Assembly (NCBI GenBank): GCA_028718635.1
Contig: JAQULK010000001.1
Coordinates: 88,626-152,625 of the forward strand
Origin: Minisyncoccota bacterium
GTDB lineage: Bacteria > Patescibacteriota > Minisyncoccia > Phycocordibacterales > UBA9973
Direction: 5' to 3'
Length of the DNA: 64,000 nt
The notes under the pieces: generated by a model
The model's input: only the letters and a program-made list of their open reading frames with translations
Told to the model about the DNA's origin: nothing
Databases searched by the model: none
In this document: piece after piece, positions 21,224 through 63,194 of the stretch
Numbering within the stretch: the first letter of the stretch is position 1
How the letters are laid out: every line of letters begins with the position of its first letter
Position numbers and translations under genes: made by a program

Positions 21224-21997
21224 ATGAAAATAATCAGCTGGAATACAAATGGTTTGAGGGCGACGGCAAAACAGGGATTTCTTGCTCCCCTTTTTGAGAA
21301 ATATAAGCCTGATATTTTGTGCTTGCAAGAGACAAAAGCCGAACCGGACCAGCTTCCAGAAGAAGTGCGCAACGTAAAAAATTATTATTCTTACTTTTCA
21401 CATCCAAAAATTAAAAAAGGATATAGCGGTGTGGCTATCTATTCAGCGGTTGAACCGCTGGAGATCTTCTATGGTATGGGAATAGAAAAATTCGACGAAG
21501 AAGGCAGATTGATCGGCGTTAAGTATAAAGATTTTACTTTGATAAATGTATATTTCCCAAACGGAGGCCAAGGACCGCACAGATTAAAATATAAATTAGA
21601 ATTTTATGATGCTTTTTTAAAATTTATTTTGAAACTGCGAAGAGACGGAGAAAATGTAATTTTCTGCGGGGACATAAACACTGCTCACACCGAGATAGAC
21701 CTCGCTCGCCCGAAAGCAAATGAAGAAAATACGGGTTTCCTGCCCATAGAGCGCGCATGGATAGATAAAGTAATAAAGAATAAATTTATCGATATCTTTA
21801 GAAAATTTTATCCAGAAAAAATAGGTGCTTACACGTATTGGGACATCAAAAGTCGCGCCCGAGACCGCAACGTCGGCTGGCGCATAGATTATTTTTTCGT
21901 TGATGAAAAGATGGTATCTAAAATAAAGTCTATTGGAATGCTAACTAATTACATGGGTTCAGATCACTGCCCGATTTGGCTAGAAATTAAGGAATGA
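21224..21997 (+). CDS. xth: exodeoxyribonuclease III
   Basis: 257 aa. WN.NGLRA, LCLQETK and SDHCP motifs. Confidence 0.85.
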   Translation: MKIISWNTNGLRATAKQGFLAPLFEKYKPDILCLQETKAEPDQLPEEVRNVKNYYSYFSHPKIKKGYSGVAIYSAVEPLEIFYGMGIEKFDEEGRLIGVKYKDFTLINVYFPNGGQGPHRLKYKLEFYDAFLKFILKLRRDGENVIFCGDINTAHTEIDLARPKANEENTGFLPIERAWIDKVIKNKFIDIFRKFYPEKIGAYTYWDIKSRARDRNVGWRIDYFFVDEKMVSKIKSIGMLTNYMGSDHCPIWLEIKE

Positions 21998-22120
21998 ATC
22001 CCGTTAGAAGTCTCCTAGTTAAACAAAGTCACAAAGAGTGATATAATAAGTTTGTATTTTTTATAGTCGTTATTAATAAATTAACTAACGGAAATCTAAA
22101 GATTTCCTACTTCTAACGGG
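21998..22120. repeat. family A element (~120 bp, CCCGTTAGAAGTCTCC...TCCTACTTCTAACGGG)
   Basis: Fills exactly the gap between the xth stop and the ATG of the downstream gene. Confidence 0.75.
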
Positions 22121-22738
22121 ATGAAAGCAGCTAGATTAGAAACTCTTGCAGACGGCATTTTTGCCATCGTGATGACAATCTTGGTTTTTCAAATTAGGCC
22201 GCCGGTTTTGGTGGATCCTACGAATGCCAAAGAACTTGCCTTCGCGATAAAACACATGCTCCCGATTTTCCTTAGTTATCTTTTAAGTTTTTCTCTGCTT
22301 TTTTCTTATTGGCGGGCACATCATTTCTTTGTTTCAGTTTATGCGAAAAATATTGACGTCAATCTGACGAATCTTAATGCGATTTTTTTCTTATTCCTCG
22401 CGCTTATTCCTTTTTCCACTTCTCTGCTCGGAGAGTATAGCAACAATCAATTTTCAATAGTTATTTTTGGCATTCATACCGTCATTATGGGTTTTTGTCT
22501 TTTTGCCATTCGCAGTTATGTGTTTAACTCCGATCATATAAAAAATATCGATGTCAGCAGACAAGAAATACGCCGTGGTACTGTCCGAACCTTTGTGCCT
22601 GTGGTTTTCGGTTTATTGGCAATTGTTCTTTCTTTTTTCAACAATTATCTATCTCTCGTTCTCTTTACCCTCGCTGTGATTTTCAACTTTTCTCAAACAA
22701 GTACTGTCTTTATAGATAAATTTATCAAAAATCTATAG
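22121..22738 (+). CDS. DUF1211/TMEM175-like membrane protein
   Basis: RLETLADGIFAIVMTILVFQI matches the RxxxFSDGV motif, followed by further TM helices. Confidence 0.65.
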   Translation: MKAARLETLADGIFAIVMTILVFQIRPPVLVDPTNAKELAFAIKHMLPIFLSYLLSFSLLFSYWRAHHFFVSVYAKNIDVNLTNLNAIFFLFLALIPFSTSLLGEYSNNQFSIVIFGIHTVIMGFCLFAIRSYVFNSDHIKNIDVSRQEIRRGTVRTFVPVVFGLLAIVLSFFNNYLSLVLFTLAVIFNFSQTSTVFIDKFIKNL

Positions 22739-25911: not shown

Positions 25912-27594
25912 TTACTTCACTCCATGTTTCGTGTGTAGTTTTTTTACCTCTTCTTCTTCTAATTCTTCTTTTTTTTCTTTTCCGCGCAGACCGAGAGTTT
26001 TGAGTTCCGCATCCCCAAGCATATTTAAAGATTTTACCAATTCAGACAAATGTTCCACGGTATTTTTCTCCGGGGCATCCAGCACTTCTTCGAGCAACGC
26101 ATGCAAAATCCACCCCATCCGCGGTCCGGAAGTTATTCCGAGTTCTTTTATCATAAATTCTCCGTTGATTTTTAGCTGTCCGACAGAAATCGGATCCCTC
26201 AAAGCCTCCTCGATCATGGCAAAATATTTTCGAAGCCGATACGGGGCTTCTTTCTTTTTCATTCCCACCCTGTCGCACTCACGGACATCCATTAAAAGCC
26301 AAATATTTTCTTTGCCGACTTTTGTAATAATTCTTCGCACTGCCGAAAGTGTGATCAATTCCGTATCGGAAAAAAACATATGATTGCGCACAAGCTTGGA
26401 CACCAATTCAATTTCTTTTTTAGGAAATTTTAATCTCTCCATTATTTTTTTTGCCATTCGCGCCCCGACAACTTCATGCCCGTAAAAAGTAAATTTCTTT
26501 TTAGCTTTTAAAGACGAAGACGGGGAAATAAATTTGCTTTCGCGGGGTGTCTCGCAGGCTGACGAGCCGAGAGGCAGCGCTGTGCGAGCACGCACAGACA
26601 GCGACCCCGAGAAAGCAGAATTTATTTCCCCGTCTTGTTTCCCTGCAAGTCTTCTAGCTCGCGGTTTCCCAATATCATGAAAAAGCGCTGCGAGCCTTAT
26701 TTCTAAAGACCAATTCTTGTTCGCTGCATGTTGCAATGCAAGTAATGAATGATTCCAAACATCATAAATATGCTCCCCCCCTTGTTCACAATCCACGCCT
26801 TCGAGTAATTCAGGAATTATATTTTTTAACAAATTAAATTTCTGAAGCATTAGCACTCCAGAAGAAGCATTGGCACTAGTTGTTATTTTTACAAATTCAT
26901 CTCGGATTCTTTCCTCAGAAATTTTTTTTATTAATTCCGAATTTTTCAAAATACTTTCCGTTGTTTCTTGCGCAATAAAAAAATTAAGTTGGCAAGAGAA
27001 ACGCACCGCGCGCAACATCCGAAGAGCATCTTCGGCAAAGCGGTCATCTGGATCCCCTACCGCTTTTAACGTCTTGTCCTTAATGTCCTTTATGCCGTCA
27101 AACAAATCTACGAGGTGTCCTTTAGGGCTTAAGGCCATTGCATTGACTGTAAAATCACGTCTCTTGAGGTCATCCTCTAACTTATCACTGAATTTTACCT
27201 CATCAGGATGCCGAAAATCGCTGTATTTTGCCTCTGTTCTATATGGAGTAACTTCAATTATGAAATTATGGGATGTTTCACGAATAACGTCTTGTATTTC
27301 CCCCTCTCCTTTACAAGGAGAGGGTTGGGGTGAGGTTCCCAATGTTTCACGGGAAACAACCACTGCGACCGTTCCAAACGTATTTTCATATACAGTCTTC
27401 TCAAAAAGCCCTATTATTTGTTCCGGTTTTGCATTCGTCGTGACATCCCAGTCGTTTGGTATTTTATCCATTAAAAGATCTCGAACACACCCGCCAACTA
27501 AATATGCCTCAAATCCGGCCTTTTCGAGCGTATTTGTTACATGTGAAACTTCTTTGGGGATTTTGGATATTAAGTTTTTAGTTATTGAATCCAC
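25912..27594 (-). CDS. cca: CCA-adding tRNA nucleotidyltransferase with HD domain, carrying two in-frame palindromic insertions
   Basis: GGCVRDLLM and RRDFTVNAMA (polymerase head). HD motif LFHDIGKP. Insertions at about 27296..27345 and 26518..26625. Confidence 0.85.
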   Translation of the reverse strand: MDSITKNLISKIPKEVSHVTNTLEKAGFEAYLVGGCVRDLLMDKIPNDWDVTTNAKPEQIIGLFEKTVYENTFGTVAVVVSRETLGTSPQPSPCKGEGEIQDVIRETSHNFIIEVTPYRTEAKYSDFRHPDEVKFSDKLEDDLKRRDFTVNAMALSPKGHLVDLFDGIKDIKDKTLKAVGDPDDRFAEDALRMLRAVRFSCQLNFFIAQETTESILKNSELIKKISEERIRDEFVKITTSANASSGVLMLQKFNLLKNIIPELLEGVDCEQGGEHIYDVWNHSLLALQHAANKNWSLEIRLAALFHDIGKPRARRLAGKQDGEINSAFSGSLSVRARTALPLGSSACETPRESKFISPSSSLKAKKKFTFYGHEVVGARMAKKIMERLKFPKKEIELVSKLVRNHMFFSDTELITLSAVRRIITKVGKENIWLLMDVRECDRVGMKKKEAPYRLRKYFAMIEEALRDPISVGQLKINGEFMIKELGITSGPRMGWILHALLEEVLDAPEKNTVEHLSELVKSLNMLGDAELKTLGLRGKEKKEELEEEEVKKLHTKHGVK

Positions 27595-30918: not shown

Positions 30919-31290
30919 GTGGATAACCCCCACACCTTTTGTTTTATACCTTCAGGTCATATAATGATTATTATGTATTATATATATGTTCTAAAAAGCA
31001 TAAAAGATGATAAATTATATATCGGTTCGACTAATGACCTGAAGCGAAGACTTTCGGAACACAACAATGGATTTAATCGTTCAACAAAAGCTAGGCGACC
31101 ATTTGAACTTCGCTATTATGAAGCTTGTGCCAATGAACATGATGCTAGAACTAGAGAATATAATTTAAAAAAAGATGGAAAAGCGCTTGGGCAACTAAAA
31201 AGAAGGATTTCCGAAAGTCTTAAATAAATCCCCACAACCTATTTGGATAGGTGTGGGGATAAAACGAAAGGTGTGGGGGATAACCCTTTT
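30919..31290. mobile_element. GIY-YIG gene bounded by inverted repeats (family B: TGTGGATAACCCCCACACCTTT / AAAGGTGTGGGGGATAACC)
   Basis: Inverted repeats at 30921..30942 and 31270..31290 enclose one small GIY-YIG ORF. A solo derivative lies at 61068..61216. Confidence 0.6.
30964..31227 (+). CDS. small GIY-YIG nuclease-family protein
   Basis: YYIYVLKS...KLYIGSTNDLKRRLSEHN pattern. Start placed after the inverted repeat. Confidence 0.65.
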   Translation: MIIMYYIYVLKSIKDDKLYIGSTNDLKRRLSEHNNGFNRSTKARRPFELRYYEACANEHDARTREYNLKKDGKALGQLKRRISESLK

Positions 31291-43803: not shown

Positions 43804-44346
43804 ATGACTGAAAAATCAAAAAAATTAATACAAGAGGAAATGTTGAATCTGCCAAAAGAAGCGCAAGATGCCATCAATGCTTCAAATTGGGAAAAACAAT
43901 CTGAAGAAATTGGAAAAAAATACTTACTGAATGAGGATGAAATTTATACTTTTCAACTAGAAACAGCTTGTTTTTTACTTGGTCTTATTGATGAAGATCA
44001 ATACCAAAAAAATATCGAAGATGGCATAGGCACCAGTAAAGCTGAAGCAGAAAAAATATCTGAAGAAGTAATACAGAAAATACTTATTCCTATCAATGAT
44101 CTTTTTGTAAAAAATATTAAAAAAAGCGATAAGGTAAAAAACGCAACGGCTGAGCAAAATCTTAATTTTATTTTATCCGGCGGGGATTATACGGCGTTTT
44201 TGGATGTTCCTCCTCTCGTTGATAAGGAGGGGAATGAGGGGAGGTTCTTAACTAATTCAAATTCACCTCACCCCGACCCTCTCCTTAGTAAGGAGAGGGG
44301 GAATACTGAAGAAACAGTCTTACCAGCCTTTTTTATTAAAAAATAA
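43804..44346 (+). CDS. hypothetical protein (paralogue of the next gene)
   Basis: 180 aa. N-terminus similar to 44364..44957. Carries an in-frame palindromic insertion encoding SNSPHPDPLLSKERGN. Confidence 0.45.
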   Translation: MTEKSKKLIQEEMLNLPKEAQDAINASNWEKQSEEIGKKYLLNEDEIYTFQLETACFLLGLIDEDQYQKNIEDGIGTSKAEAEKISEEVIQKILIPINDLFVKNIKKSDKVKNATAEQNLNFILSGGDYTAFLDVPPLVDKEGNEGRFLTNSNSPHPDPLLSKERGNTEETVLPAFFIKK

Positions 44347-44978: not shown

Positions 44979-45258
44979 ATCCCGTTAGAGATCACTTATG
45001 TTTTATTACACATATATTTTAAAAAGTAAGAAGGACGGTAAAATTTACACTGGATATACGCAAGACCTACGGAAGCGCCTGAATCAGCATAATAAAGGTT
45101 TATCTACATATACGAAAGGACGAGGCCCATTTATTTTGATATACTATGAAGGGTGTCTATTAGAAAGTAAAGCGAAGTCGAGAGAATTATTTTTAAAATC
45201 GGGAATGGGCAAGCGTTATCTAAAAAATAGATTAGGCGCTTCCTATCTCTAACGGGAT
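44979..45258. mobile_element. GIY-YIG gene bounded by perfect 14-bp inverted repeats ATCCCGTTAGAGAT / ATCTCTAACGGGAT (family A archetype)
   Basis: The inverted repeats directly flank the 84-aa GIY-YIG ORF. Termini match the solo family A repeats. Confidence 0.7.
44998..45252 (+). CDS. small GIY-YIG nuclease-family protein
   Basis: YYTYILKSKKDGKIYTGYTQDLRKRLNQHN. Confidence 0.7.
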   Translation: MFYYTYILKSKKDGKIYTGYTQDLRKRLNQHNKGLSTYTKGRGPFILIYYEGCLLESKAKSRELFLKSGMGKRYLKNRLGASYL

Positions 45259-45721
45259 GCAATTCAAAGTTCCACAATTTTTAGACATTGAAGATAAAAT
45301 ATTCGGCCCTTTTACTTTTAGGGAATTTGTTTATTTAGCCGGCGGGGCAGGCTTGTGTTTTATTCTTTATAAATTGCTGGGTCTTATTTTAGGAATAATA
45401 CCCATTTTAGCTGTCGCGGGATTTTCGCTCGCTCTTACTTTTTACAAACCAAATAATAAACCATTTATTAATATAATAGAATCAGGTTTTAAGTATTTTA
45501 CCCAAAATAAACTTTATATTTGGAAGAAAAAAGCAAATAAAACCACCTCTTCCCCCGCCTTCTCCAAAGGAGAAGGAGCCCTCTCCTTCGGGGAGGGTTT
45601 GGGAGGGGTAAACAAAATTCAAATGATGCATCCAGGCAGTTCCCCGTTGAGTGGGAGCAAGTTACGAGACTTGGCTTGGAGTTTAGATGTGCTGGACTTG
45701 AGTAAGCAACAATCCCGTTAG
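45257..45721 (+). CDS. PrgI-family (VirB3-analogue) membrane protein
   Basis: MQFKVPQFLDIEDKIFGPFTFREFVYLAGGAG followed by two TM helices. Lies immediately upstream of VirB4. In-frame palindromic insertion near the C-terminus. Confidence 0.55.
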   Translation: MQFKVPQFLDIEDKIFGPFTFREFVYLAGGAGLCFILYKLLGLILGIIPILAVAGFSLALTFYKPNNKPFINIIESGFKYFTQNKLYIWKKKANKTTSSPAFSKGEGALSFGEGLGGVNKIQMMHPGSSPLSGSKLRDLAWSLDVLDLSKQQSR

Positions 45722-45833
45722 AAGCCGCGGTCGCAGTTTAAAAAATATAAATATGTTAAATAGAAAAATAAAAATTAATAGAATAACAAAGCATAATCAC
45801 GGTCTGTTGACCGCGACCTGCTTCTAACGGGAT
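45711..45833. repeat. family A element (GAAGC subtype)
   Basis: Left inverted repeat contains the TAG stop of the PrgI-like gene. Right inverted repeat ends ...TAACGGGATG, giving the ATG of the next ORF. Inverse-orientation copy at 61725..61805. Confidence 0.75.
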
Positions 45834-46470
45834 GGCCTTAAACGCAAAAGCAACTCAAGAATTTGTCCCGATCAAGGAAGTCCGCGATGGAATCGTTGTA
45901 TTAAAAAACGACGAACTGCGAGCTATTGTCCTAGCCAATTCTGTCAACTTAGCCTTAAAATCTTCCGACGAACAACAGGCAACAATAATGCAATTCCAAA
46001 ATTTTCTTAACACTTTGGATTTTTCTGTGCAAATATCGATTCAATCAAGAAGACTGGACATTAGACCGTATCTTTTGCTTTTGGAAAACAGAATCAAGGT
46101 GCAAAATGAGCCTCTTTTAAAATTACAAACCAAAGAATATATAGACTTCATCAGAAATTTTACTGACTCAGTGGCAATAATGACCAAAAACTTTTTTGTA
46201 GTAGTGCCTTACACTCACACTGCCTTAAAATCAGACTCTGGAATCTTGGATAAAATATTTTCTAGAAAAAATAAAGAAGAAATAAAAGCTGCCAAACAAA
46301 TAGCCTTTGAAGAAAAAAGATCCCAATTGGAAGAAAGAGTGGCGGTCATTCAGCAAGGACTCTCTAGTTGCGGTATAAATTCAGCGCAGCTCGGCACCGA
46401 AGAAGTAGTGGAAGTATTTTATAAGGTTTTCAATCCGGGAGAGATAGAAGGGAAGATTAAAGTAGAATAG
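45832..46470 (+). CDS. VirB4/TraE-type ATPase, N-terminal segment
   Basis: FVPIKEVRDGIVVLKND...NLALKSSDEQQATIMQFQNFLNTLDFSVQISIQ resembles Gram-positive VirB4 N-termini. Confidence 0.5.
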   Translation: MALNAKATQEFVPIKEVRDGIVVLKNDELRAIVLANSVNLALKSSDEQQATIMQFQNFLNTLDFSVQISIQSRRLDIRPYLLLLENRIKVQNEPLLKLQTKEYIDFIRNFTDSVAIMTKNFFVVVPYTHTALKSDSGILDKIFSRKNKEEIKAAKQIAFEEKRSQLEERVAVIQQGLSSCGINSAQLGTEEVVEVFYKVFNPGEIEGKIKVE

Positions 46471-46509
46471 CATCGAGCGCCTTAGGCTCTCTGAGAGCCT
46501 AAGGCGCTA

Positions 46510-48369
46510 ATGCAAAATAAAATGAGTATCTTAGAAAACATTAAAAAATTATTTGGAAAAGAAAAAAGAGACGATAATGAAGAAACACAAGCTTCTGTTT
46601 TGGCCGTCTTGCCGGAAAAGATCTATGAGTCTGCCAATCTTGAACTTCAAGATGTCATAGCGCCGTCAGCCTTAAAAATTGACCCGAAATCCATAAATTT
46701 AGGAAACAAAATCGCCCGTACTTTTTTTATAATATCTTATCCGAGATATTTAACAGATAATTGGTTTTCTCCGATAATCAATTTGGATAAAATTTTTGAT
46801 ATTTCAATATTCATCCACCCCATAGACACTTCTCTCATGTTGCGGCAATTCCAGAAAAAAGTGGCTGAAGTTCAAAGCCAGATAAGCGTCCGAGAAGCAA
46901 AAGGGATGGTACGCGACCCGATGCTGGACACTGCTTATGAAGATTTGGAAGGGCTTCGCAATAATCTGATCCAAGCGCAAGAAAAGATGTTCGATGTGGG
47001 AGTTTACATTACGATTTATGCAGATAATGAATTAGAGCTATTTAAAATTGAAAATGAAATAAAATCAATGCTCGAATCGAAGCTCATATACATCAAGCCG
47101 GCGCTTTTCCAGCAAGAAGAGGGTTTTAAAAGCGTTATTCCAATAGAAACAGACTTATTGAACATCCATCAAAAATTAAACTCTGAGCCTCTTTCTAGTG
47201 TTTTTCCATTTATTTCCTCTGATCTTACTTCCGACAAAGGAATACTTTACGGTATCAACAGAAATAACTCGTCCCTCGTTATTTTCGACCGGTTCAGCTT
47301 AGAGAATTATAACTCCGTGACCTTTGCTAAATCAGGTTCTGGAAAATCTTATGCGGCAAAATTAGAAATTTTAAGATCATTAATGTTTGACACTGATGTC
47401 ATCGTAATAGATCCAGAAAGAGAGTACGAATTTTTAGCTGAAACTGTCGGCGGACGCTATTTTAATATTTCACTTTCCTCAGATCACCATTTAAATCCCT
47501 TTGATTTGCCAATACCTCGTGAAGATGAAACAGTGGAGGATGTATTGCGTTCAAATATTATAAACTTAGTGGGGCTTTTCAGGCTGATGCTAGGCGGACT
47601 CACCCCGGAAGAAGATTCAATGGTGGACCGAGCTATTTCAGAAACTTATGCTATGAAAGACATCACCCCGGAATCAGATTTTTCAAACATCGAACCTCCT
47701 CTTCTTTCAGATTTCGAAATGGTGCTCTCTGGGATGGAAGGAAGCGATTCGGTCATCGCCAGACTGGCAAAATACACCCGAGGCTCTTGGTCAACCTTCT
47801 TAAATAGACCGTCTAATGTAGATATCAACAAAAAATTCGTGGTTTTTTCTGTCCGTGATATGGAAGACGAATTAAAACCGGTAGCCATGTATATCATAAT
47901 GCATTACATTTGGAATGCGATAAGAAAGAATCTTAAAAAAAGACTTCTCGTAGTGGACGAAGCCTGGTGGATGATGAAATCTGAAGATACGGCTTCATTT
48001 CTTTATTCAATCGCAAAAAGAGGCAGAAAATATTATTTAGGTCTTTCCACTATTACCCAAGACGCAGCTGACTTTATGAAATCTCCATATGGCGTACCAA
48101 TAATCACCAACTCTTCCATTCAACTTCTCTTGAAACAATCGCCTACCACTATTGATATTCTGCAAAAAACCTTCAACCTCACTGATGAGGAAAAATATTT
48201 GCTTCTAGAATCCGGACTAGGGGAGGGTATATTTTTCGCAGGATTAAAGCACGTCGCTATAAAAATAGTTTCTTCTTATACTGAGGACCAGATCATTACC
48301 TCTGATCCTTCGCAAATATTATTAAACAAAAAAGCCAGAGAGGAGCAGGAGGCGAAGGATATGGTATAA
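46510..48369 (+). CDS. VirB4/TraE-type type IV secretion ATPase (central and ATPase domains)
   Basis: YPRYLTDNWF...ISIFIHPID. Walker A AKSGSGKSY. Walker B LLVVDEAWWM. Confidence 0.8.
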   Translation: MQNKMSILENIKKLFGKEKRDDNEETQASVLAVLPEKIYESANLELQDVIAPSALKIDPKSINLGNKIARTFFIISYPRYLTDNWFSPIINLDKIFDISIFIHPIDTSLMLRQFQKKVAEVQSQISVREAKGMVRDPMLDTAYEDLEGLRNNLIQAQEKMFDVGVYITIYADNELELFKIENEIKSMLESKLIYIKPALFQQEEGFKSVIPIETDLLNIHQKLNSEPLSSVFPFISSDLTSDKGILYGINRNNSSLVIFDRFSLENYNSVTFAKSGSGKSYAAKLEILRSLMFDTDVIVIDPEREYEFLAETVGGRYFNISLSSDHHLNPFDLPIPREDETVEDVLRSNIINLVGLFRLMLGGLTPEEDSMVDRAISETYAMKDITPESDFSNIEPPLLSDFEMVLSGMEGSDSVIARLAKYTRGSWSTFLNRPSNVDINKKFVVFSVRDMEDELKPVAMYIIMHYIWNAIRKNLKKRLLVVDEAWWMMKSEDTASFLYSIAKRGRKYYLGLSTITQDAADFMKSPYGVPIITNSSIQLLLKQSPTTIDILQKTFNLTDEEKYLLLESGLGEGIFFAGLKHVAIKIVSSYTEDQIITSDPSQILLNKKAREEQEAKDMV

Positions 48370-48376
48370 TAAAACT

Positions 48377-49363
48377 ATGAGACTTAGGTTTTTAACATTA
48401 AATTTTCTTATAACAATCGCGATACTAGGAACTTTTTTACCGCTCGCCGCAAAAGCAGTTTCGTCGGATGATGTTTTAGTTAATGTGTCACCAGAAAATC
48501 CAGCCCCTGGTGAAAACGTAAATATTTCTTTAAAAAGCTATGTTAATAATTTAGACATAGTTTTAATATCTTGGTCAGTAAATGGCAAGAATGTTTCCTC
48601 TGGGATTGGCAAGAAATCTTTTTCTCTTAATGCACCAAGCGCTGGAGGGGAAACAAGCGTCATCGCCACTGCTTCCTTGCCAGATGGCGCAGTAGATACA
48701 AAGGTAATAATAAGACCCTCGGCAATGGTGTTGCTTTCCGAAGCATTGGATTCTTATACACCTCCGTTTTATAAAGGCAAAGCATTACCTTCGCCTGATA
48801 GTTTAGTAAAAGTAGTTGCCTTACCAGAAATAAAATCTGGCTCTAATTTTATAAATCCTAAAAATCTGACTTACGCCTGGCAAAAAGATTACACCAGCAA
48901 CCAAGATGGTTCCGGTTATGGAAAAAATACTTTTACTTATGTAAATGATTATCTTGAAAACTCAAACAACATCGGAGTGACAGCCGGAACCACTGATCAG
49001 AAATTTTCCTCAACAGTAAATATAGACGTAAGAATGAAAGAACCAAAAATTATTTTTTACAAAAATGACGCCAAGCTGGGAACGATTTGGGAACAAGCAC
49101 TCGCTGATGGATATAAAATTCTCGGAAATGAAATCATTGAGGCAGCGCCGTATTTTTTCTCACCTCGCGACATCAGAGTTCCATTAGTCACTTTTGATTG
49201 GTTTATAAATAGCCAAACAATAAATGTGCCTAGTTATAGGAAAAATATACTGCCACTTCAAGCACAAGTGGGAACTTCCGGAACTTCTAAAATAAGATTA
49301 GAAATTAATAATGCCGATAAAATTTTTGAAAGCGCCGTTAAGGAAATCAATGTAAATTTTTAA
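48377..49363 (+). CDS. secreted hypothetical protein of the T4SS-like cluster
   Basis: 328 aa with signal peptide. No recognised motif. Confidence 0.45.
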   Translation: MRLRFLTLNFLITIAILGTFLPLAAKAVSSDDVLVNVSPENPAPGENVNISLKSYVNNLDIVLISWSVNGKNVSSGIGKKSFSLNAPSAGGETSVIATASLPDGAVDTKVIIRPSAMVLLSEALDSYTPPFYKGKALPSPDSLVKVVALPEIKSGSNFINPKNLTYAWQKDYTSNQDGSGYGKNTFTYVNDYLENSNNIGVTAGTTDQKFSSTVNIDVRMKEPKIIFYKNDAKLGTIWEQALADGYKILGNEIIEAAPYFFSPRDIRVPLVTFDWFINSQTINVPSYRKNILPLQAQVGTSGTSKIRLEINNADKIFESAVKEINVNF

Positions 49364-50299
49364 ATGATGAAGAAAGATATATTTAAAAAAATAATAGCCT
49401 TAACATATCTAACATTTTTATTATTTGGATTTCTTACTCCTGCTCGCCATATTTTCGCAGAAGATACTCCCAAAGATGCAACCTATCAACTTTTAGCTCC
49501 GCTTCCTGATCCAGAAGGAGGAAATGATATTGAGATTAATGATCCTACACATCCTGAAGCCCTAAGTGATTATTTAAACGTAATGATAAAGCTCATTATA
49601 GGCATCTGCGCTGTCTTGGCAGTGGTAATGATCGTAATGGGTGGCATTGAATATATGACGAGCGAATTGATTTCAAGTAAAGCAGCGGGTAAAGACAGAA
49701 TTATGCATGCAATTTTTGGTCTTATTTTAGCCCTTGGCGCTTGGACGATTCTCAATACCATAAATCCTAAATTACTCGATAGTAGTTTATCGAGTTTAAA
49801 AAATGTGACAGTGGAGGTAACTGCACAAAATTTTGCACTCTCTCCTTCAACGTATATTGTTCCCCTCGGTGGAAAAGGACAAGCAAGTGGTACAAACTGT
49901 GATGAAAATGCAGTTGCTGCGGCAAACGCCGGTCTTAGTAATGCTCAAATACATACACTCGCTTGCATAGGTGGAATAGAAAGCGGTTGTAAATCAGTCA
50001 AAAACTACGCTTGGGGGAATGGGTCCTCTGCGTATGGACCTTTCCAGATAACATTACAAGGGAATGCTGGATGTTTTACAAGCCAGGTTTGCCGCGACGC
50101 CGGAGCACCGCCTTATCCGCCTGGTTGTGCCGCCGGATTCCAAAATGGTAATCCTAAACCTGGTTCTCCGATTGTGGAACAATGCAAGAACGCTGCTAAT
50201 AATTTTAATTGCAGTGTCTCGGCTGCCGCATGTTTAATAAAAAAGAGACCGAACTATGGCGACTGGAACGCGAACAGCAATCTTTCAAAGTGCCTATAA
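49364..50299 (+). CDS. pilin-like two-helix membrane segment (VirB2-like) fused to a Cys-rich lytic-transglycosylase-like domain
   Basis: Signal sequence. Hydrophobic hairpin IIGICAVLAVVMIVMGG...IFGLILALGAWTILN. C-terminal IESG...AYGPFQI resembles the SLT ES...GLMQ motifs. Confidence 0.4.
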   Translation: MMKKDIFKKIIALTYLTFLLFGFLTPARHIFAEDTPKDATYQLLAPLPDPEGGNDIEINDPTHPEALSDYLNVMIKLIIGICAVLAVVMIVMGGIEYMTSELISSKAAGKDRIMHAIFGLILALGAWTILNTINPKLLDSSLSSLKNVTVEVTAQNFALSPSTYIVPLGGKGQASGTNCDENAVAAANAGLSNAQIHTLACIGGIESGCKSVKNYAWGNGSSAYGPFQITLQGNAGCFTSQVCRDAGAPPYPPGCAAGFQNGNPKPGSPIVEQCKNAANNFNCSVSAAACLIKKRPNYGDWNANSNLSKCL

Positions 50300-50314: not shown

Positions 50315-51715
50315 ATGTCAAAAAGAAATTTTATACTTTTAATAATAGTTGTAATAATAGGAATAATTGCATTATTCGGATATTTTTATTTCAACCCAGG
50401 AACCAACACGCCAGGGGAGGACAACACGGGCACAAATTTTATTTCACAATTTAACCCATTTGGAAAAAACACCACAAAACCTCCTGCCGACACAACAACC
50501 CCAATTGATATTTCTGGAGATCAACCAAATACCACCTCTGCAGATATAGATGCAAAATTGAAAAAAGTTTCAAGCATGCCAATTGCAGGGTTTACTGTAT
50601 TTTCTAAAGAAAGATTAAAGGATGTGACTGTTCCTCCCCTCCTTTCGGAGGAGGGGGCAGGGGGTGGTGATAACTCTGCACCACCTCGCCCTTCGGGCTC
50701 TCCTCCTTCAAAAGGAGGAGAGAGAACCAAACCAACTCCGCCCCAAACTGAATTTATGCCAGCTTTGAGGTATGTGGAAAGAGCCACAGGAAATATTTAC
50801 CAAACCTTTGCAGACAAAATAGAAGAGAAGCAATTTTCGACAACAATGATACCTCAAGTGTATGAAGCATTTTTTGGAAACAAAGGAAACTCAGTAATCA
50901 TGAGATACTTGAAACCGGATGGCAGAACAATCATAACTTTTGTGGGAACTTTGCCAAAAGAGGTTCTTGGCGCAGATAGCACCGTTGGTAATGAAATAAA
51001 AGGAGTATTTCTTCCAGAAAATACAAAGGATGTGAGTTTGTCAAGCGATTCCAAAAGTCTCTTTTATATGTTTTTAAGTGGAAAAACTCAAGCAGATGGA
51101 GTAACTGGCGCTACTTTTAATTTATTAAATAATAAAAAGATTCAAGTTTTTAATTCTCCTTTCACAGAATGGTTGTCCTCATTCCTAACCAGCAAGATGA
51201 TTACTTTTACCACTAAACCTTCTGCTCAAATTCCGGGATATATGTACGTTATGGATCCGACAAATAAAAATTATAATTTTCATAAAATATTGGGCGGCAT
51301 AAATGGGCTTACCACCCTCATTAGCCCTAATGGAAAACTGGCTCTTTATAGCGATAACAATTTATCTCTTAATATTTTTCACTCGAACACAAAGGTTTCC
51401 GATACGTTGGGAGTAAAAACATTGGCGGAAAAATGTGTTTGGAATAAAACTAGTGAAGTTATTTATTGCGGAGTGCCAAAATCTTATGGAAACGGTCAAT
51501 ACCCGGACAGTTGGTATCAAGGAGAAGTTTCTTTTTCGGATCAAATTTGGAAAATAGATGTTAAAACTGGAAATGCGACTATGATTGCGGATCCAGCCGA
51601 CATAAACGGCGGAGAAGATATTGATAGCACTAAATTAGCGCTGGACGATGGAGAAAACTATTTATTTTTTGTAAACAAAAAGGATTCTTTCCTATGGGAG
51701 TTGAATTTAAAATAA
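50315..51715 (+). CDS. membrane-anchored hypothetical protein (Pro/Thr-rich linker, beta-rich C-terminal domain)
   Basis: 466 aa. N-terminal TM segment. In-frame palindromic insertion encoding PPLLSEEGAGGGD. Confidence 0.45.
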   Translation: MSKRNFILLIIVVIIGIIALFGYFYFNPGTNTPGEDNTGTNFISQFNPFGKNTTKPPADTTTPIDISGDQPNTTSADIDAKLKKVSSMPIAGFTVFSKERLKDVTVPPLLSEEGAGGGDNSAPPRPSGSPPSKGGERTKPTPPQTEFMPALRYVERATGNIYQTFADKIEEKQFSTTMIPQVYEAFFGNKGNSVIMRYLKPDGRTIITFVGTLPKEVLGADSTVGNEIKGVFLPENTKDVSLSSDSKSLFYMFLSGKTQADGVTGATFNLLNNKKIQVFNSPFTEWLSSFLTSKMITFTTKPSAQIPGYMYVMDPTNKNYNFHKILGGINGLTTLISPNGKLALYSDNNLSLNIFHSNTKVSDTLGVKTLAEKCVWNKTSEVIYCGVPKSYGNGQYPDSWYQGEVSFSDQIWKIDVKTGNATMIADPADINGGEDIDSTKLALDDGENYLFFVNKKDSFLWELNLK

Positions 51716-51832: not shown

Positions 51833-52357
51833 CTAAATTCCACCCACGTATTTGATCACCACTCGGCGATCGCGCCCGAAACCTATGGATTCGGTTTTAA
51901 GGTCATTTGATTCAGATAAAAATTCATGAACGATTCTGCGTTCGAAGGCTGACATTGGGTCAACTTCTATATTAGACTTAAAATATCTCGCTCTTTCAGA
52001 CATCATATGGGCTATTGCACGGATATTCTCAACATGTTTTTTTTGAAAACCGTTTATATCTATAATAACAGACCCTCCCCCAACCCCTCCCTTGGCAGGG
52101 AGGGGGGTCCCTTCTCCCCCTGCTAAGGGGGAGTGCCCGAAGGGCGGGGGGGTCTTAGCTTCTATTATTCTATGAACAAGGTGGCTTAACGCGTGCAAAC
52201 CCTCACCATCACGCCCAATAAAGAAATGTGGCTCGACAACCTCTATGGAAACCCATACATTTTTATGCCCATCATCAACTATTGAAATTCCATTTAGTTT
52301 TACTGTAGTTTTTTCAATTAAGTCTTTTATTAAATTTTGAATCTCTTCTTTTTCCAT
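51833..52357 (-). CDS. jag: Jag/KhpB (KH + R3H) RNA-binding protein
   Basis: R3H motif ERRIVHEFL. In-frame double-palindrome insertion encoding PPPFGHSPLAGGEGTPLPAKGGVGGGS. Confidence 0.8.
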   Translation of the reverse strand: MEKEEIQNLIKDLIEKTTVKLNGISIVDDGHKNVWVSIEVVEPHFFIGRDGEGLHALSHLVHRIIEAKTPPPFGHSPLAGGEGTPLPAKGGVGGGSVIIDINGFQKKHVENIRAIAHMMSERARYFKSNIEVDPMSAFERRIVHEFLSESNDLKTESIGFGRDRRVVIKYVGGI

Positions 52358-52477
52358 CCCGTTAGAAGCAGATCGCGATCAACTCGCGTATCTGCCATAT
52401 TAAGTTATTAATTTTATTAATATTTGATTTCATGTTTTGTTTGTTTTTAAATTGCGATCGCGGCTTCTAACGGGATC
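52356..52477. repeat. family A element (GAAGC subtype)
   Basis: Fills the yidC-jag spacer. One end supplies the jag ATG (CTAACGGGATG on the minus strand). The other ends 5 nt before the yidC stop. Confidence 0.75.
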
Positions 52478-53250: not shown

Positions 53251-53544
53251 TTACTTCACAGAATCAATGTGATTTTTTTGCCAAGGATGGCAACGCAGAA
53301 TGCGTTTCAACCCTAAATAAATTCCTTTCCATGCGCCATATTTTTCTATCGCTTGTTTGGTGTATTCAGAACAAGATGGATAAAAAACACAAGTGTTCGC
53401 TTTCAAAAAAATTGAAATGTTTTTTTGATAAAAATTAATCCCGTTAGAAGCCGCCCTCGCTAGTAAGCGAGTGCTACAGTCACCCTGGGGCGACTTGCTT
53501 CTAACGGGATTAATTAAGTTTTGAAAGAATTGTTTTAATTTCAT
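53251..53544 (-). CDS. yidD: membrane protein insertion efficiency factor YidD with in-frame family A repeat
   Basis: C.FYPSCSEY...RILRCHPW signature. N-terminal residues [24 protein letters not shown] are encoded by repeat 53438..53512. Confidence 0.7.
53438..53512. repeat. family A element inside the yidD 5' region
   Basis: CCCGTTAGAAGCCGCCCTCGC...GCGACTTGCTTCTAACGGGAT. Right end abuts the rnpA stop codon. Confidence 0.75.
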
Positions 53545-61216: not shown

Positions 61217-61724
61217 AAAACTTTATGTGTGCAAAGGCTGTCAGAGCTATAGCGATAGCATCCAATTCATCATCAGATGTTTTTATTTTATCTATATCCA
61301 CCAAAATTTTTACCATTTTTATTATTTGTTCTTTGTTGGCTTTTCCATAGCCAGTAGTGGCAATTTTTATTTGGGGAGGAGAAGCTTCAAATATTTTTAG
61401 TCCTGCACAGGAGGCTTCGTATATCACTACTCCGCGCGCTTCAGCGACCTTCATCACTGTCTTATGATTAGTATTTAAAAATAAAGTTTCAATAGCTAAA
61501 ATTTCTGGTTTGTATTTGCTAATTACTTTATTGACCTCTGTGCCTATTAAATGTAAACGCTCACTAAATTCTAATTTAGCCGGAGTCTTAAAACATTTGG
61601 AAAAAATTACTTTTTCCTTACCCTGAAGTCCCCGCCTGCCGGATGGGCAGGTTGCCTCAGTGGTTCGTTCTAGCACTGCTATTCCCAATCGCTCATATCC
61701 TGGATCTATCCCTAAAATCATCAT
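61215..61724 (-). CDS. ruvC: crossover junction endodeoxyribonuclease RuvC with in-frame palindromic insertion
   Basis: ILGIDPG...AIETLF...DELDAIAIALT. Extra segment TTEATCPSGRRGLQGKEK is encoded by palindrome CCTGCCGGATGGGCAGG. Confidence 0.8.
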   Translation of the reverse strand: MMILGIDPGYERLGIAVLERTTEATCPSGRRGLQGKEKVIFSKCFKTPAKLEFSERLHLIGTEVNKVISKYKPEILAIETLFLNTNHKTVMKVAEARGVVIYEASCAGLKIFEASPPQIKIATTGYGKANKEQIIKMVKILVDIDKIKTSDDELDAIAIALTAFAHIKF

Positions 61725-61805
61725 CCCGTTAGAAGCAGGTCGCGGTCAGACCGTGACTACTTAAATTAATATTATTAAAATTGCGACCGCGGCTTCTAAC
61801 GGGAA
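61725..61805. repeat. family A element (inverse copy of 45711..45833)
   Basis: Occupies exactly the 81 bp between the ruvB stop (TGA 61806..61808) and the ruvC ATG. Confidence 0.8.
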
Positions 61806-62828: not shown

Positions 62829-62843
62829 ATGGGTTTTTGGTTG

Positions 62844-62895
62844 ATCCCGTTAGAGGCCGCGAGGGCTCGCAGCGACCCTCTGCCTCTAACGGGAT
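62844..62895. repeat. family A element (GAGGC subtype)
   Basis: Near-identical to 14447..14497. Lies 16 bp upstream of the ruvB ATG. Confidence 0.8.
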
Positions 62896-63194
62896 TGACA
62901 TTGATTTTATTATATGCTATATTGTGAGCGTAGTACATTTATCAACAGGGTATCAACATAGCTATCAACATTATAGCATTTGCTTGATTAAGCATATAGT
63001 ATAATTACAAAAGAGAAAGTTTTTGTTGATATTTAAATAAGGCATTAATCTCTAAGCAATCAGCCATAGGTTATATGAATTTGCGTAGGACGTTTTGGGG
63101 CTTTAATTAGTTTCTGGAGCTATCCTATAATATTTTATTACTTTCGGAGCTCAGCTCTGAAAGGATTGTTTAGAGATTAATGCTTTTTTTGTTC

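What the first reader, a model, noticed from the sequence alone, without database searches (positions are those of the whole stretch)
45832..48369. VirB4 apparently split into two ORFs by a 39-bp gap containing a perfect 16-bp-stem palindrome
ORF 45832..46470 looks like a VirB4 N-terminal region. ORF 46510..48369 carries the YPR motif region and the ATPase. Together they total about 830 aa, the size of an intact Gram-positive VirB4. The gap holds AGCGCCTTAGGCTCTC-T-GAGAGCCTAAGGCGCT (46476..46508), a perfect palindrome, followed directly by the ATG of the second ORF. This is either a genuine two-gene arrangement with an internal attenuator, or a palindromic element that inserted with its own stop and start signals.
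Basis: partly seen in the sequence, partly recalled or inferred. Interest (0 to 1): 0.55.

Follow-up and report, generated by a model that had tools for sequence, protein, structure and literature searches.

The report
Natural TrsD–VirB4 gene pair, palindrome inserted
The "split VirB4" is the normal, already published two-gene layout (TrsD-like protein plus VirB4 ATPase) of the type IV secretion system in Patescibacteria, and the perfect palindrome between the genes is a recent, dispensable insertion of a small palindromic DNA element, not a broken gene or a conserved regulator.

Summary
A 212-aa ORF and a 619-aa ORF are separated by 39 nt that hold a perfect 16+1+16 palindrome.

The split is not a disruption. 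All 80 related Paceibacteria/Nomurabacteria genomes I fetched have the same two genes cut at the same point. Thousands of homologues are standalone proteins of about 212 aa. The small protein has the fold of the VirB4 N-terminal subdomain and belongs to the TrsD / "TraC-like" family. A 2025 paper already reports TrsD next to virB4 as the commonest type IV secretion component in Patescibacteria.

The palindrome is not conserved. Half of the relatives have a 1–7 nt spacer. The others carry unrelated hairpin elements of at least four families, and the 97%-identical relative carries a different one. The neighbouring gene junction is colonised just as often.

The identical palindrome also occurs in two other species, in frame inside the coding sequence of the gene downstream of virB4. 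It has no T-run, matches no Rfam family, and has no second copy in the window.

The best reading is a small, low-copy, probably mobile palindromic element in a tolerant spacer. At most it has side effects on mRNA stability or on translational coupling of the two genes. Interest is low to moderate.

The parts
45257..45721 (+). PrgI / VirB3-like membrane protein gene, the first gene of the conserved PrgI - TrsD-like - VirB4 block.
   Evidence: Pfam PF12666 PrgI, E 7e-8. The same gene order is seen in L084.
45712..45833 (.). A 122-nt inverted-repeat element (ATCCCGTTAGAAGC ... GCTTCTAACGGGAT) that fills the PrgI/TrsD spacer. Its left arm supplies the TAG stop of PrgI and its right arm abuts or creates the ATG of the 212-aa ORF.
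   Evidence: There are 16 terminal motifs in the window against 0.5 expected. The same element sits in the TrsD/VirB4 gap of L019 and L070.
45832..46470 (+). TrsD-like / 'TraC-like' protein of 212 aa: a free-standing homologue of the first subdomain of the VirB4 N-terminal domain.
   Evidence: At least 8000 homologues were found, and the best 120 are all 210-216 aa. NCBIfam hits fall on conju_CD1110 positions 2-167 of 752 and TrsD positions 14-200 of 201. The AlphaFold model has pLDDT 87, and the top 14 PDB fold matches are all TrwK/VirB4.
46471..46521 (+). Intercistronic spacer: 39 nt up to ATG 46510, or 51 nt up to the conserved ATG 46522. It holds in-frame stops at 46483 and 46492 in addition to the stop at 46468.
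46476..46508 (.). Perfect 33-nt palindrome (16-nt arms, 1-nt centre). An imperfect extension GCAT/ATGC makes it 46470..46513.
   Evidence: There is no second copy in the window. Identical arms occur in L054, L035 and L081-L083 at a different site.
46522..48369 (+). VirB4-family T4SS ATPase. The start conserved in relatives is 46522. An in-frame ATG at 46510 would add 4 residues. Walker A (GSGKS) begins at 47335.
   Evidence: NCBIfam conju_CD1110 scores 364 bits against a cutoff of 325, covering profile positions 182-733. Pfam P-loop_TraG, E 8e-25. PDB 4AG5 VirB4, E 4e-41. The start codon assignment comes from the alignments.
48824..48850 (+). Site in the downstream 328-aa gene (PEIKSGSNF loop) that corresponds to where the identical palindrome sits in frame in L054 and L035. 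It is uninserted in the window.

Best explanation
The two ORFs are the normal gene pair of the Patescibacteria (monoderm-type, MPF-FATA-like) type IV secretion system. One is a free-standing TrsD-like protein with the fold of the first part of the VirB4 N-terminal domain. The other is the VirB4 ATPase proper. The split is ancient and fixed.

Ancestrally the two cistrons are 1-7 nt apart in a genome with almost no Shine-Dalgarno sequences. The ATPase gene is therefore probably translated by termination-reinitiation coupling (inferred).

In the window's lineage a small palindromic DNA element of 33-44 nt has been inserted into, or has remodelled, this spacer. It is one of many hairpin elements that turn over rapidly in the intercistronic spacers of this operon in Paceibacteria. 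The same palindrome sits in frame inside a coding gene in two other species, so it is not a device tailored to the VirB4 junction.

As RNA it would form a stem-loop of -29 to -35 kcal/mol without a U-tract. Its likely effects are incidental (inferred, not shown). It adds back-up stop codons. It could act as a 3'-exonuclease barrier that favours the upstream TrsD segment. It lengthens and structures the path to the ATPase start codon, and a ribosome terminating 5 nt upstream of the stem would be expected to melt the stem.
For: - The split is conserved. All 80 genome loci at 75-95% amino-acid identity have the stop at the same place and the ATPase ORF starting just after. The best 120 of at least 8000 homologues are 210-216 aa. 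Of the 150 best 50%-identity cluster representatives, only one is fused.
- The pair is colinear with fused VirB4. P0256 residues 1-218 align to the N ORF and residues 230-789 align to C ORF residues 46-604, with an 11-aa linker. NCBIfam conju_CD1110 positions 2-167 and 182-733 match the two ORFs respectively.
- The fold is VirB4-like. The top 14 PDB matches are all TrwK/VirB4, and the next match has probability 0.30.
- It is published. TrsD is described as a remote homologue of the VirB4 N-terminus, with 2,272 homologues in Patescibacteria, 1,664 of them beside virB4 (PMC12102498).
- The palindrome is not conserved. Forty of 81 spacers are at most 7 nt. The rest carry at least four unrelated element families. 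The closest relative (97%) has a different 79-nt element, and L001 (95%) has only 4 nt.
- The junction is not special. Spacers of at least 12 nt occur in 37 of 80 PrgI/TrsD junctions against 41 of 81 TrsD/VirB4 junctions. Strong hairpins occur in 18 against 16.
- The same palindrome lies elsewhere. It is in frame in the downstream gene of L054 and L035, and in three metagenome contigs of the same two species. It is 33/34 identical between those two species, while the surrounding gene is 71-73% identical (P about 1e-4).
- It is not a terminator and matches no Rfam family.
- Shine-Dalgarno-like motifs precede only 5 of 50 long ORFs.
Against: - Mobility is inferred, not shown. Only two insertion sites are known, and both lie in the same operon.
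- There is no second copy in the 64-kb window.
- Only 3 exact hits were found in the metagenome collection.
- No target-site duplication and no mobilising enzyme were identified.
- The palindrome's near-perfect conservation against 71-75% identical host genes could mean selection for a function rather than recent spread.
- The relation to the TAGGC-heptad element family found at this site in the closest relatives rests only on shared short motifs.
- Nothing about RNA-level effects has been measured.
Confidence: 0.8

Rival explanations
1. The hairpin is a selected intercistronic RNA element. It could be an attenuator, an mRNA-stability barrier or a processing site that sets the TrsD:VirB4 ratio or gates ATPase translation in a genome that lacks Shine-Dalgarno sequences. 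On this view hairpins have been recruited to this spacer repeatedly and convergently.
For: The stem is very stable (-29 to -35 kcal/mol, z = -5.3). It begins 5 nt after the stop codon and ends 1 or 13 nt before candidate start codons. Sixteen of 81 species have a strong hairpin (MFE of -15 kcal/mol or lower) in exactly this spacer, drawn from several unrelated sequence families. The genome is nearly free of Shine-Dalgarno sequences, so internal cistrons need some other means of initiation.
Against: Half of the species, including a 95% relative, manage with a 1-7 nt spacer and no hairpin. The neighbouring PrgI/TrsD spacer shows the same frequency of hairpins, so nothing is specific to this junction. 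There is no U-tract. The identical palindrome sits inside a coding sequence in two species, where an intercistronic role is impossible.
Confidence: 0.1
2. The palindrome is a DNA-level cis site tied to the T4SS operon. It could be an operator for a dimeric regulator, or a recognition or nicking site, whose position within the operon is flexible.
For: Every occurrence found lies inside the same operon: the window, L054, L035, and the three hits of an unbiased metagenome scan. It appears to be about single-copy per genome, with one copy in the 64-kb window and one in the 1,795 bases held of a 124-kb contig. It is a perfect 16-bp dyad. It is much better conserved than the host genes.
Against: It is absent from the operon in 78 of 80 relatives. 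In L054 and L035 it replaces a protein loop in frame, which is an odd place for an operator. No candidate binding protein or relaxase was identified. The sampling is biased, because the 80 loci are this operon only.
Confidence: 0.07
3. A palindromic element recently interrupted an intact VirB4 gene and supplied stop and start signals. This gives a pseudogene, or a gene newly split by insertion.
For: The two ORFs are in the same reading frame. The element carries TAG and TGA stops and an ATG. A fused 797-aa homologue exists.
Against: The same split, at the same residue, is present in all 80 relatives, including 40 with no insertion at all. Both ORFs are under strong conservation, at 75-97% and 86-96% amino-acid identity. 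Spacer lengths fall in all three frames (40/21/20), so there is no fused or recoded product. TrsD is a recognised separate protein.
Confidence: 0.01
4. The palindrome is an assembly artefact of the source contig.
For: There is no independent assembly of the window's genome. The window's 212-aa protein is not on record in the collection, and the exact palindrome with a 1-nt centre is absent from the metagenome collection.
Against: The flanks continue colinearly with relatives on both sides. The same 15-16-nt arms are reproduced in five independent assemblies of two other species. Inverted chimeras do not produce a 33-nt hairpin embedded in normal sequence.
Confidence: 0.02

Closest known systems
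TrsD/TraD + TrsE/TraE (VirB4) of Gram-positive conjugative plasmids (pGO1/pSK41 prototype), and TrsD-VirB4 of Patescibacteria T4SS (PMC12102498)
   Same: A small free-standing protein homologous to the VirB4 N-terminus is encoded immediately upstream of the VirB4 ATPase, and PrgI/VirB3 lies upstream of both. The N ORF hits the TrsD model over its whole length, positions 14-200 of 201. The paper reports the same arrangement across Patescibacteria.
   Different: The TrsD hit is weak (27.6 bits against a curated cutoff of 200), so this is a distant relative of the staphylococcal prototype. The window has an extra palindrome between the two genes.
Fused VirB4 of the CD1110 / Mbov_0397 families, and P0256 (797 aa)
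   Same: They are colinear. N ORF plus C ORF cover profile positions 2-167 and 182-733 of 752. P0256 joins both parts through an 11-aa linker.
   Different: Here the product is two polypeptides. The first ~45 residues of the ATPase ORF form a variable leader with no counterpart in the fused protein.
Rickettsia palindromic elements (RPE; selfish palindromic DNA inserted in frame into genes) - from my own knowledge
   Same: It is a palindromic element found both between genes and in frame inside a protein-coding gene, where it is read as SALGSPESLRRS in L054 and L035. The window also has a separate 75-nt in-frame palindromic insertion in ORF 43804..44346.
   Different: It is much shorter (33-34 nt against roughly 100-150 nt), is apparently low-copy, and occurs in an unrelated phylum. 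No sequence similarity was tested or is expected.
REP/BIME and other intercistronic palindromes in bacterial operons - from my own knowledge
   Same: It is a GC-rich extragenic palindrome between two cistrons of one operon. It is capable of forming a stable RNA stem-loop without a U-tract, and such stems can protect upstream mRNA from 3' exonucleases.
   Different: REPs occur in hundreds of copies and are linked to RAYT transposases. Here there is one copy in 64 kb, and no RAYT was looked for or found. This sequence also occurs inside a coding region.
Intrinsic (Rho-independent) terminator or attenuator
   Same: It has a stable GC-rich hairpin within an operon.
   Different: No T-run follows the stem on either strand, and the consensus scan did not flag it. 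It is not conserved in relatives.

Membership tests
VirB4-family T4SS ATPase (C ORF) | P-loop NTPase domain with a Walker A motif and family-level profile similarity above the curated cutoff. | tested here: met
   NCBIfam conju_CD1110 scores 364.4 bits against a cutoff of 325. Pfam P-loop_TraG scores 87.8 bits against a cutoff of 25.8. GSGKS is at residue 276. PDB 4AG5 VirB4 matches at E 4e-41.
VirB4-family T4SS ATPase (C ORF) | Encoded in a T4SS gene cluster with VirB3/PrgI and a pilin or VirB2-like gene. | tested here: met
   PrgI is at 45257..45721 and a T4SS_pilin-domain protein is at 49364..50299.
TrsD / 'TraC-like' (PF26593) VirB4-N-terminal-like proteins (N ORF) | Sequence membership in the family profile. 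| tested here: inconclusive
   NCBIfam TrsD gives E 2e-6 over the full model length, but only 27.6 bits against a cutoff of 200. The local Pfam copy gave no hit. However, all 120 close homologues listed, including the 97% one, carry a precomputed PF26593 'TraC-like' hit.
TrsD / 'TraC-like' (PF26593) VirB4-N-terminal-like proteins (N ORF) | Fold of the VirB4 N-terminal region. | tested here: met
   The AlphaFold model has pLDDT 87.2. The top 14 Foldseek PDB matches are all TrwK/VirB4 chains, with probability 1.00 and TM-score (query-normalised) 0.37-0.62 (0.54-0.62 in 12 of the 14). The next match has probability 0.30.
TrsD / 'TraC-like' (PF26593) VirB4-N-terminal-like proteins (N ORF) | Free-standing gene immediately upstream of virB4. 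| tested here: met
   This holds in 81 of 81 loci and in the literature.
Intrinsic terminator / attenuator | GC-rich stem followed by a U/T-run. | tested here: not met
   The stem is followed by AATGCAAAATAAA, and by CGATGCTATTC on the reverse strand. The scan did not list it.
REP / BIME-type repetitive extragenic palindromes | Many dispersed copies per genome, strictly extragenic. | tested here: not met
   There is one copy in the 64-kb window at up to 3 mismatches. In two other species the sequence is intragenic. The whole source genome was not available.
REP / BIME-type repetitive extragenic palindromes | Associated RAYT (Y1 transposase). | not tested
   The window ORFs outside the T4SS block were not scanned for transposases.
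MITE | Terminal inverted repeats plus a target-site duplication, with multiple copies. | tested here: not met
   The flanks at the three sites (CATCG/AATGC, GAGATT/CTTTGG, GAAATT/CTATGA) show no duplication. The sequence is single-copy in the window.
RPE-like in-frame palindromic elements | The same palindromic element is found in frame within intact protein-coding genes as well as between genes. | tested here: met
   In L054 (339-aa ORF) and L035 (324-aa ORF) the gene remains intact with the palindrome read as SALGSPESLRRS or SALGSSESLRRS. Of the 72 related loci aligned with the window, only these two have it.
RPE-like in-frame palindromic elements | Homology to Rickettsia RPE families. | not tested
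   No RPE sequences were at hand. Homology is not expected, given the length and the phylum.
Known RNA families (Rfam 15) | A covariance-model match at or above the gathering score. | tested here: not met
   Only a sub-threshold hairpin-type miRNA match was found (24.9 bits against 83; E 0.44).

The most novel reading that the evidence does not exclude
Paceibacteria genomes like this one may host a previously undescribed set of small palindromic and inverted-repeat elements. These elements colonise intercistronic spacers precisely at stop/start codon boundaries, and they also insert in frame into genes.

One family (ATCCCGTTAGA...TCTAACGGGAT) appears to derive from a mobile 84-aa GIY-YIG nuclease cassette and regenerates the downstream ATG.

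In this reading the VirB4-junction palindrome would be a minimal member of that set. In these Shine-Dalgarno-less genomes the hairpins could have been co-opted as intercistronic RNA processing or stability modules that tune the stoichiometry of T4SS subunits.
Probability: 0.15. Interest if true: 0.6.

Novelty: new member of a known kind. Interest (0 to 1): 0.28.

Why it matters
For annotation, the practical value is a warning. The 212-aa protein upstream of virB4 in Patescibacteria is a real, conserved TrsD-like subunit. It should not be merged with VirB4 or flagged as a pseudogene fragment. A striking palindrome in the spacer does not imply regulation.

Biologically, the modest interest lies in the comparative picture. 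The tight, probably translationally coupled junctions of an essential T4SS operon tolerate rapid turnover of unrelated hairpin elements. One and the same 33-nt palindrome can sit between genes in one species and be translated as a protein loop in another. If followed up genome-wide, this could document "selfish DNA in genes", of the kind known from Rickettsia, in ultra-small CPR genomes that are generally regarded as streamlined.

Tried and rejected
- Other copies in the window. A search with up to 3 mismatches found none. The motif units TTAGGC and GCCTAA occur at chance frequency (my estimate).
- Exact palindrome with a 1-nt centre in metagenome contigs. Zero hits. Relaxing the loop to 1-8 nt gave only 3 hits, all from the L054 and L035 species.
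- 15-mer arm in viral contigs. Fifteen single-strand hits and none palindromic. I estimate this to be the chance level for a 15-mer, so it is uninformative.
- Sequence searches of the N ORF against PDB, as a single sequence and as a 50-sequence profile. Nothing was found. Only the fold comparison showed the VirB4 relationship.
- The local Pfam copy gave no hit for the N ORF. The family name came from precomputed hits.
- Rfam at a permissive E-value gave only sub-threshold miRNA-like hairpin matches.
- The terminator scan was negative for the palindrome.
- Read-through or frameshift fusion of the two ORFs was rejected. There are three in-frame stops, and the spacer lengths of relatives fall in all three frames.
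- Look-up of the window's own protein found nothing on record, so the source contig could not be extended.
- A literature search for palindromic elements in CPR/Patescibacteria found nothing relevant.
- One script call was an empty stub.
Full report
**Observation.**
- ORF 45832..46470 encodes 212 aa and ends in TAG.
- A perfect palindrome, AGCGCCTTAGGCTCTC-T-GAGAGCCTAAGGCGCT, lies at 46476..46508.
- One base later an ATG at 46510 opens a 619-aa ORF that ends at 48369.
- A 16-bp GC-rich perfect stem is far beyond chance. Shuffled windows give 0-2 stems of at least 10 bp.
- The RNA fold of 46440-46560 is -34.7 kcal/mol with z = -5.3.
- That fold also shows the stem continues as GCAU/AUGC, so the ATG at 46510 is the mirror image of CAT at 46471-73.

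**What the two ORFs are.**
- The 619-aa ORF is a VirB4-family ATPase. It scores 364 bits against NCBIfam conju_CD1110 (cutoff 325, profile positions 182-733 of 752). It hits Pfam P-loop_TraG, carries a GSGKS Walker A motif, and matches PDB 4AG5 VirB4 at E 4e-41.
- The 212-aa ORF has no PDB sequence relative. It does hit the N-terminal parts of fused VirB4 models (conju_CD1110 positions 2-167; VirB4_plasma positions 102-234). It also hits the stand-alone TrsD/TraD model over its whole length.
- Its close homologues carry Pfam PF26593 'TraC-like'.
- An AlphaFold model built on 50 homologues has pLDDT 87.2. It matches only TrwK/VirB4 chains of the R388 system in the PDB. These are the top 14 hits, with probability 1.00 and TM 0.37-0.62 (0.54-0.62 in 12 of them). 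The next hit has probability 0.30.
- A rare fused homologue, P0256 (797 aa), aligns to the 212-aa ORF end to end (residues 1-218). After an 11-residue linker it aligns to residues 46-604 of the ATPase ORF.
- The pair is therefore colinear with an intact VirB4 and nothing conserved is missing. The first ~45 residues of the ATPase ORF are a variable leader.
- PrgI/VirB3 lies upstream and a T4SS pilin-domain gene lies downstream.

**The split is natural and already known.**
- The 212-aa protein has at least 8000 homologues, and the best 120 (83-97% identical) are all 210-216 aa.
- Among the 150 best representatives of 50%-identity clusters, almost all are stand-alone proteins. Some carry low-complexity tails. 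Only one is fused.
- In all 80 genome loci fetched (Paceibacterota, Nomurabacteria and other Patescibacteria MAGs) the first ORF stops at the same place and the ATPase ORF starts just after.
- Spacer lengths fall in all three frames (40/21/20). The window has three in-frame stops between the ORFs. No read-through or frameshift product is therefore plausible.
[quoted passage not shown] It describes TrsD as the most abundant T4SS component in Patescibacteria, with 1,664 of 2,272 homologues encoded beside virB4 and an essential copy in Southlakia epibionticum.

**The spacer in relatives.**
- Forty of 81 loci have a spacer of at most 7 nt (one is an 8-nt overlap). In 39 of those 40 the stop codon is TAA.
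- The other 41 carry 12-130 nt of inserted sequence from several unrelated families. One is a CTAGGCAAGACCT...AGGTCTTGCCTAG hairpin. Another is a long hairpin built from TAGGCNN heptads. Others are AT-rich ATAAAGTT repeats, and a ~116-nt element bounded by CCCGTTAGAAGC/GCTTCTAACGGG.
- With insertions, TAG stops rise to 17 of 41. In the heptad family the TAG stop is the first TAGGC unit of the element.
- Within the window's own clade (at least 92% amino-acid identity) the spacer has four different states. L001 has 4 nt. L002, L003 and L004 have a 28-nt non-hairpin. L084, L005 and L006 have a 79-81-nt heptad element. The window has the palindrome.
- As a control, the adjacent PrgI/TrsD junction is colonised just as often. 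Spacers of at least 12 nt occur in 37 of 80 against 41 of 81 loci. Spacers with MFE of -15 kcal/mol or lower occur in 18 against 16 loci. The TrsD/VirB4 junction is therefore not special.
- In relatives the ATPase gene begins ATG AGT ATT TTA GAA, which aligns to the window ATG at 46522.
- The palindrome is thus followed by a 13-nt A-rich tail, like the tails after the other hairpin families.

**The same palindrome elsewhere.**
- A hairpin scan of the 80 loci found identical arms in L054 (16-nt stem, 2-nt loop) and L035 (15-nt stem, 4-nt loop). Both lie about 2.4 kb downstream of the junction.
- There the palindrome lies in frame inside the intact gene that follows virB4, the homologue of window ORF 48377..49363. 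It is read as SALGSPESLRRS or SALGSSESLRRS and replaces the usual KSGS... loop after a conserved MPEI.
- In an alignment of the window with 72 related loci, only these two have it.
- A metagenome-wide scan for perfect 15-nt arms with a 1-8-nt loop found three contigs, all from these same two species.
- Between L054 and L035 the palindrome is 33/34 identical, while the surrounding gene is 71-73% identical (P about 1e-4).
- The sequence is therefore a discrete entity. Either it is much younger than the host genes, or it is strongly constrained, and it can sit in two quite different contexts.
- It is, however, low-copy. There is one copy in the 64-kb window, and one in the 1,795 bases held of a 124-kb metagenome contig. 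No target-site duplication is visible.

**How it most likely works.**
- Shown: the split is ancestral, and the palindrome is lineage-specific and dispensable for the operon in relatives. It is not a canonical terminator and not a known RNA family.
- Inferred: only 5 of 50 long ORFs have a Shine-Dalgarno-like motif, and the ancestral spacer is 1-7 nt. The ATPase cistron is therefore probably translated by coupling to TrsD termination.
- Inferred: the inserted stem begins 5 nt after the stop codon. A terminating ribosome should melt its 5' arm, which could keep the downstream start accessible. That would explain why such insertions are tolerated.
- Inferred: the stem could also act as a 3'-exonuclease barrier and supplies extra stop codons.
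- I consider these to be side effects of a selfish or neutral insertion rather than a selected function (confidence about 0.8 for the whole picture).

**Rivals.**
- A selected intercistronic RNA module (0.10). Hairpins do recur at this spot in 16 of 81 species. But they recur equally at the neighbouring junction, half the species lack them, and the same sequence is intragenic elsewhere.
- An operon-linked DNA site such as an operator (0.07). This is suggested by the fact that all known copies lie in this operon and by the low copy number. Against it are the absence from 78 of 80 relatives and the in-frame coding location.
- Gene disruption by the element (0.01). This is refuted.
- Assembly artefact (0.02). 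This is unlikely, given colinear flanks and independent assemblies of the same arms in other species.

**Comparison with known systems.**
- The gene pair is a member of the TrsD + VirB4 arrangement of monoderm-type T4SS, as described for Patescibacteria. Membership in the curated TrsD model is only weakly supported by score, but fold, synteny and Pfam PF26593 agree.
- The palindrome behaves like small palindromic repeats. It resembles REP-like elements between cistrons, and RPE-like elements in its ability to sit in frame in a gene. It fails the defining copy-number and target-duplication criteria of REP and MITE families, at least within the sequence available.
- I therefore call it a new, minor member of a known kind, and I call the split itself already known.

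**Seen in passing.**
- The window contains about eight copies of an inverted-repeat element with termini ATCCCGTTAGA.../...TCTAACGGGAT. There are 16 terminal motifs against 0.5 expected.
- One pair brackets a complete 84-aa GIY-YIG gene at 44979..45258. The others are 54-122-nt copies in intergenic gaps.
- The right terminus repeatedly ends exactly at the downstream gene's ATG.
- The GIY-YIG cassette is 95-96% identical in L004 and L063, although those hosts are only 80-92% related. It is absent from the 97% relative L084.
- A separate GC-rich palindromic element is inserted in frame (25 codons) in window ORF 43804..44346 relative to L084.
- These observations support the view that this lineage is rich in small mobile palindromic DNA. 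They are arguably more interesting than the finding itself.

Noticed in passing
window 44979..45258 (also L004:~2270-2550, L063:~2180-2460): An 84-aa GIY-YIG nuclease gene (44998..45252) is bracketed by a perfect 14-bp inverted repeat, ATCCCGTTAGAGAT / ATCTCTAACGGGAT. The right end runs straight into the ATG of the PrgI gene. The cassette is 95-96% identical in two genomes whose host genes are only 80-92% related, and it is absent at this site in the 97% relative L084. It looks like a mobile or homing cassette.
   Followed up: partly
window 21997-22123, 45712-45833, 52355-52477, 53437-53511, 61722-61803, 62843-62896 (solo 14489): A dispersed inverted-repeat element of 54-122 nt has the same kind of termini as the GIY-YIG cassette (CCCGTTAGAAGC...GCTTCTAACGGG). 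The motif CTAACGGGAT(G) occurs 16 times against 0.5 expected. The copies sit in intergenic gaps. The left arm gives a TAG stop, and the right arm ends exactly at the downstream ATG (22121, 45832, 51833-, 61215-). The same element fills the TrsD/VirB4 gap in L019 and L070. These are possibly non-autonomous derivatives of the GIY-YIG cassette.
   Followed up: partly
window ~44235..44309 inside ORF 43804..44346; related palindromes at 27302, 36467, 50698 (inside ORF 50315..51715), 51748, 51808: There is a 75-nt in-frame insertion (25 codons, EGRFLTNSNSPHPDPLLSKERGNT) made of nested GC-rich palindromes (CCTCACCCC.. CCCTCTCCTTAGTAAGGAGAGGG) relative to the 97% relative L084. The same element family fills the VirB4/next-gene spacer in L014, L021, L044 and L063. 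This is RPE-like 'selfish DNA in coding genes' behaviour.
   Followed up: partly
whole window (50 ORFs of at least 150 aa): Almost no Shine-Dalgarno motifs are present (5 of 50). Many genes have a TATAAT/TAGAAT-like box ending 6-10 nt before the ATG. This suggests leaderless or very short-leader mRNAs and reliance on coupling within operons.
   Followed up: no
L054:5990-6023, L035:6030-6063 (window equivalent 48824..48850): In L035 the in-frame palindrome replaces 11 codons of the loop with 12. In L054 it replaces about 5 codons with 12. The event is therefore not a simple insertion, and the loop after MPEI appears to be a tolerant surface region of this secreted 328-aa protein.
   Followed up: partly
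VirB4/next-gene spacers of the related loci (e.g. L015, L033, L043, L063): Most relatives have a 40-100-nt spacer after virB4 that ends in a conserved GTATAATTAAATT-like box just before the next gene. This looks like an internal promoter. The window instead has only 7 nt (48370..48376) there.
   Followed up: no
window 30970..31218: A second GIY-YIG paralogue is present, 48% identical to the cassette protein, and it lacks the CCCGTTAG/CTAACGGG termini.
   Followed up: no
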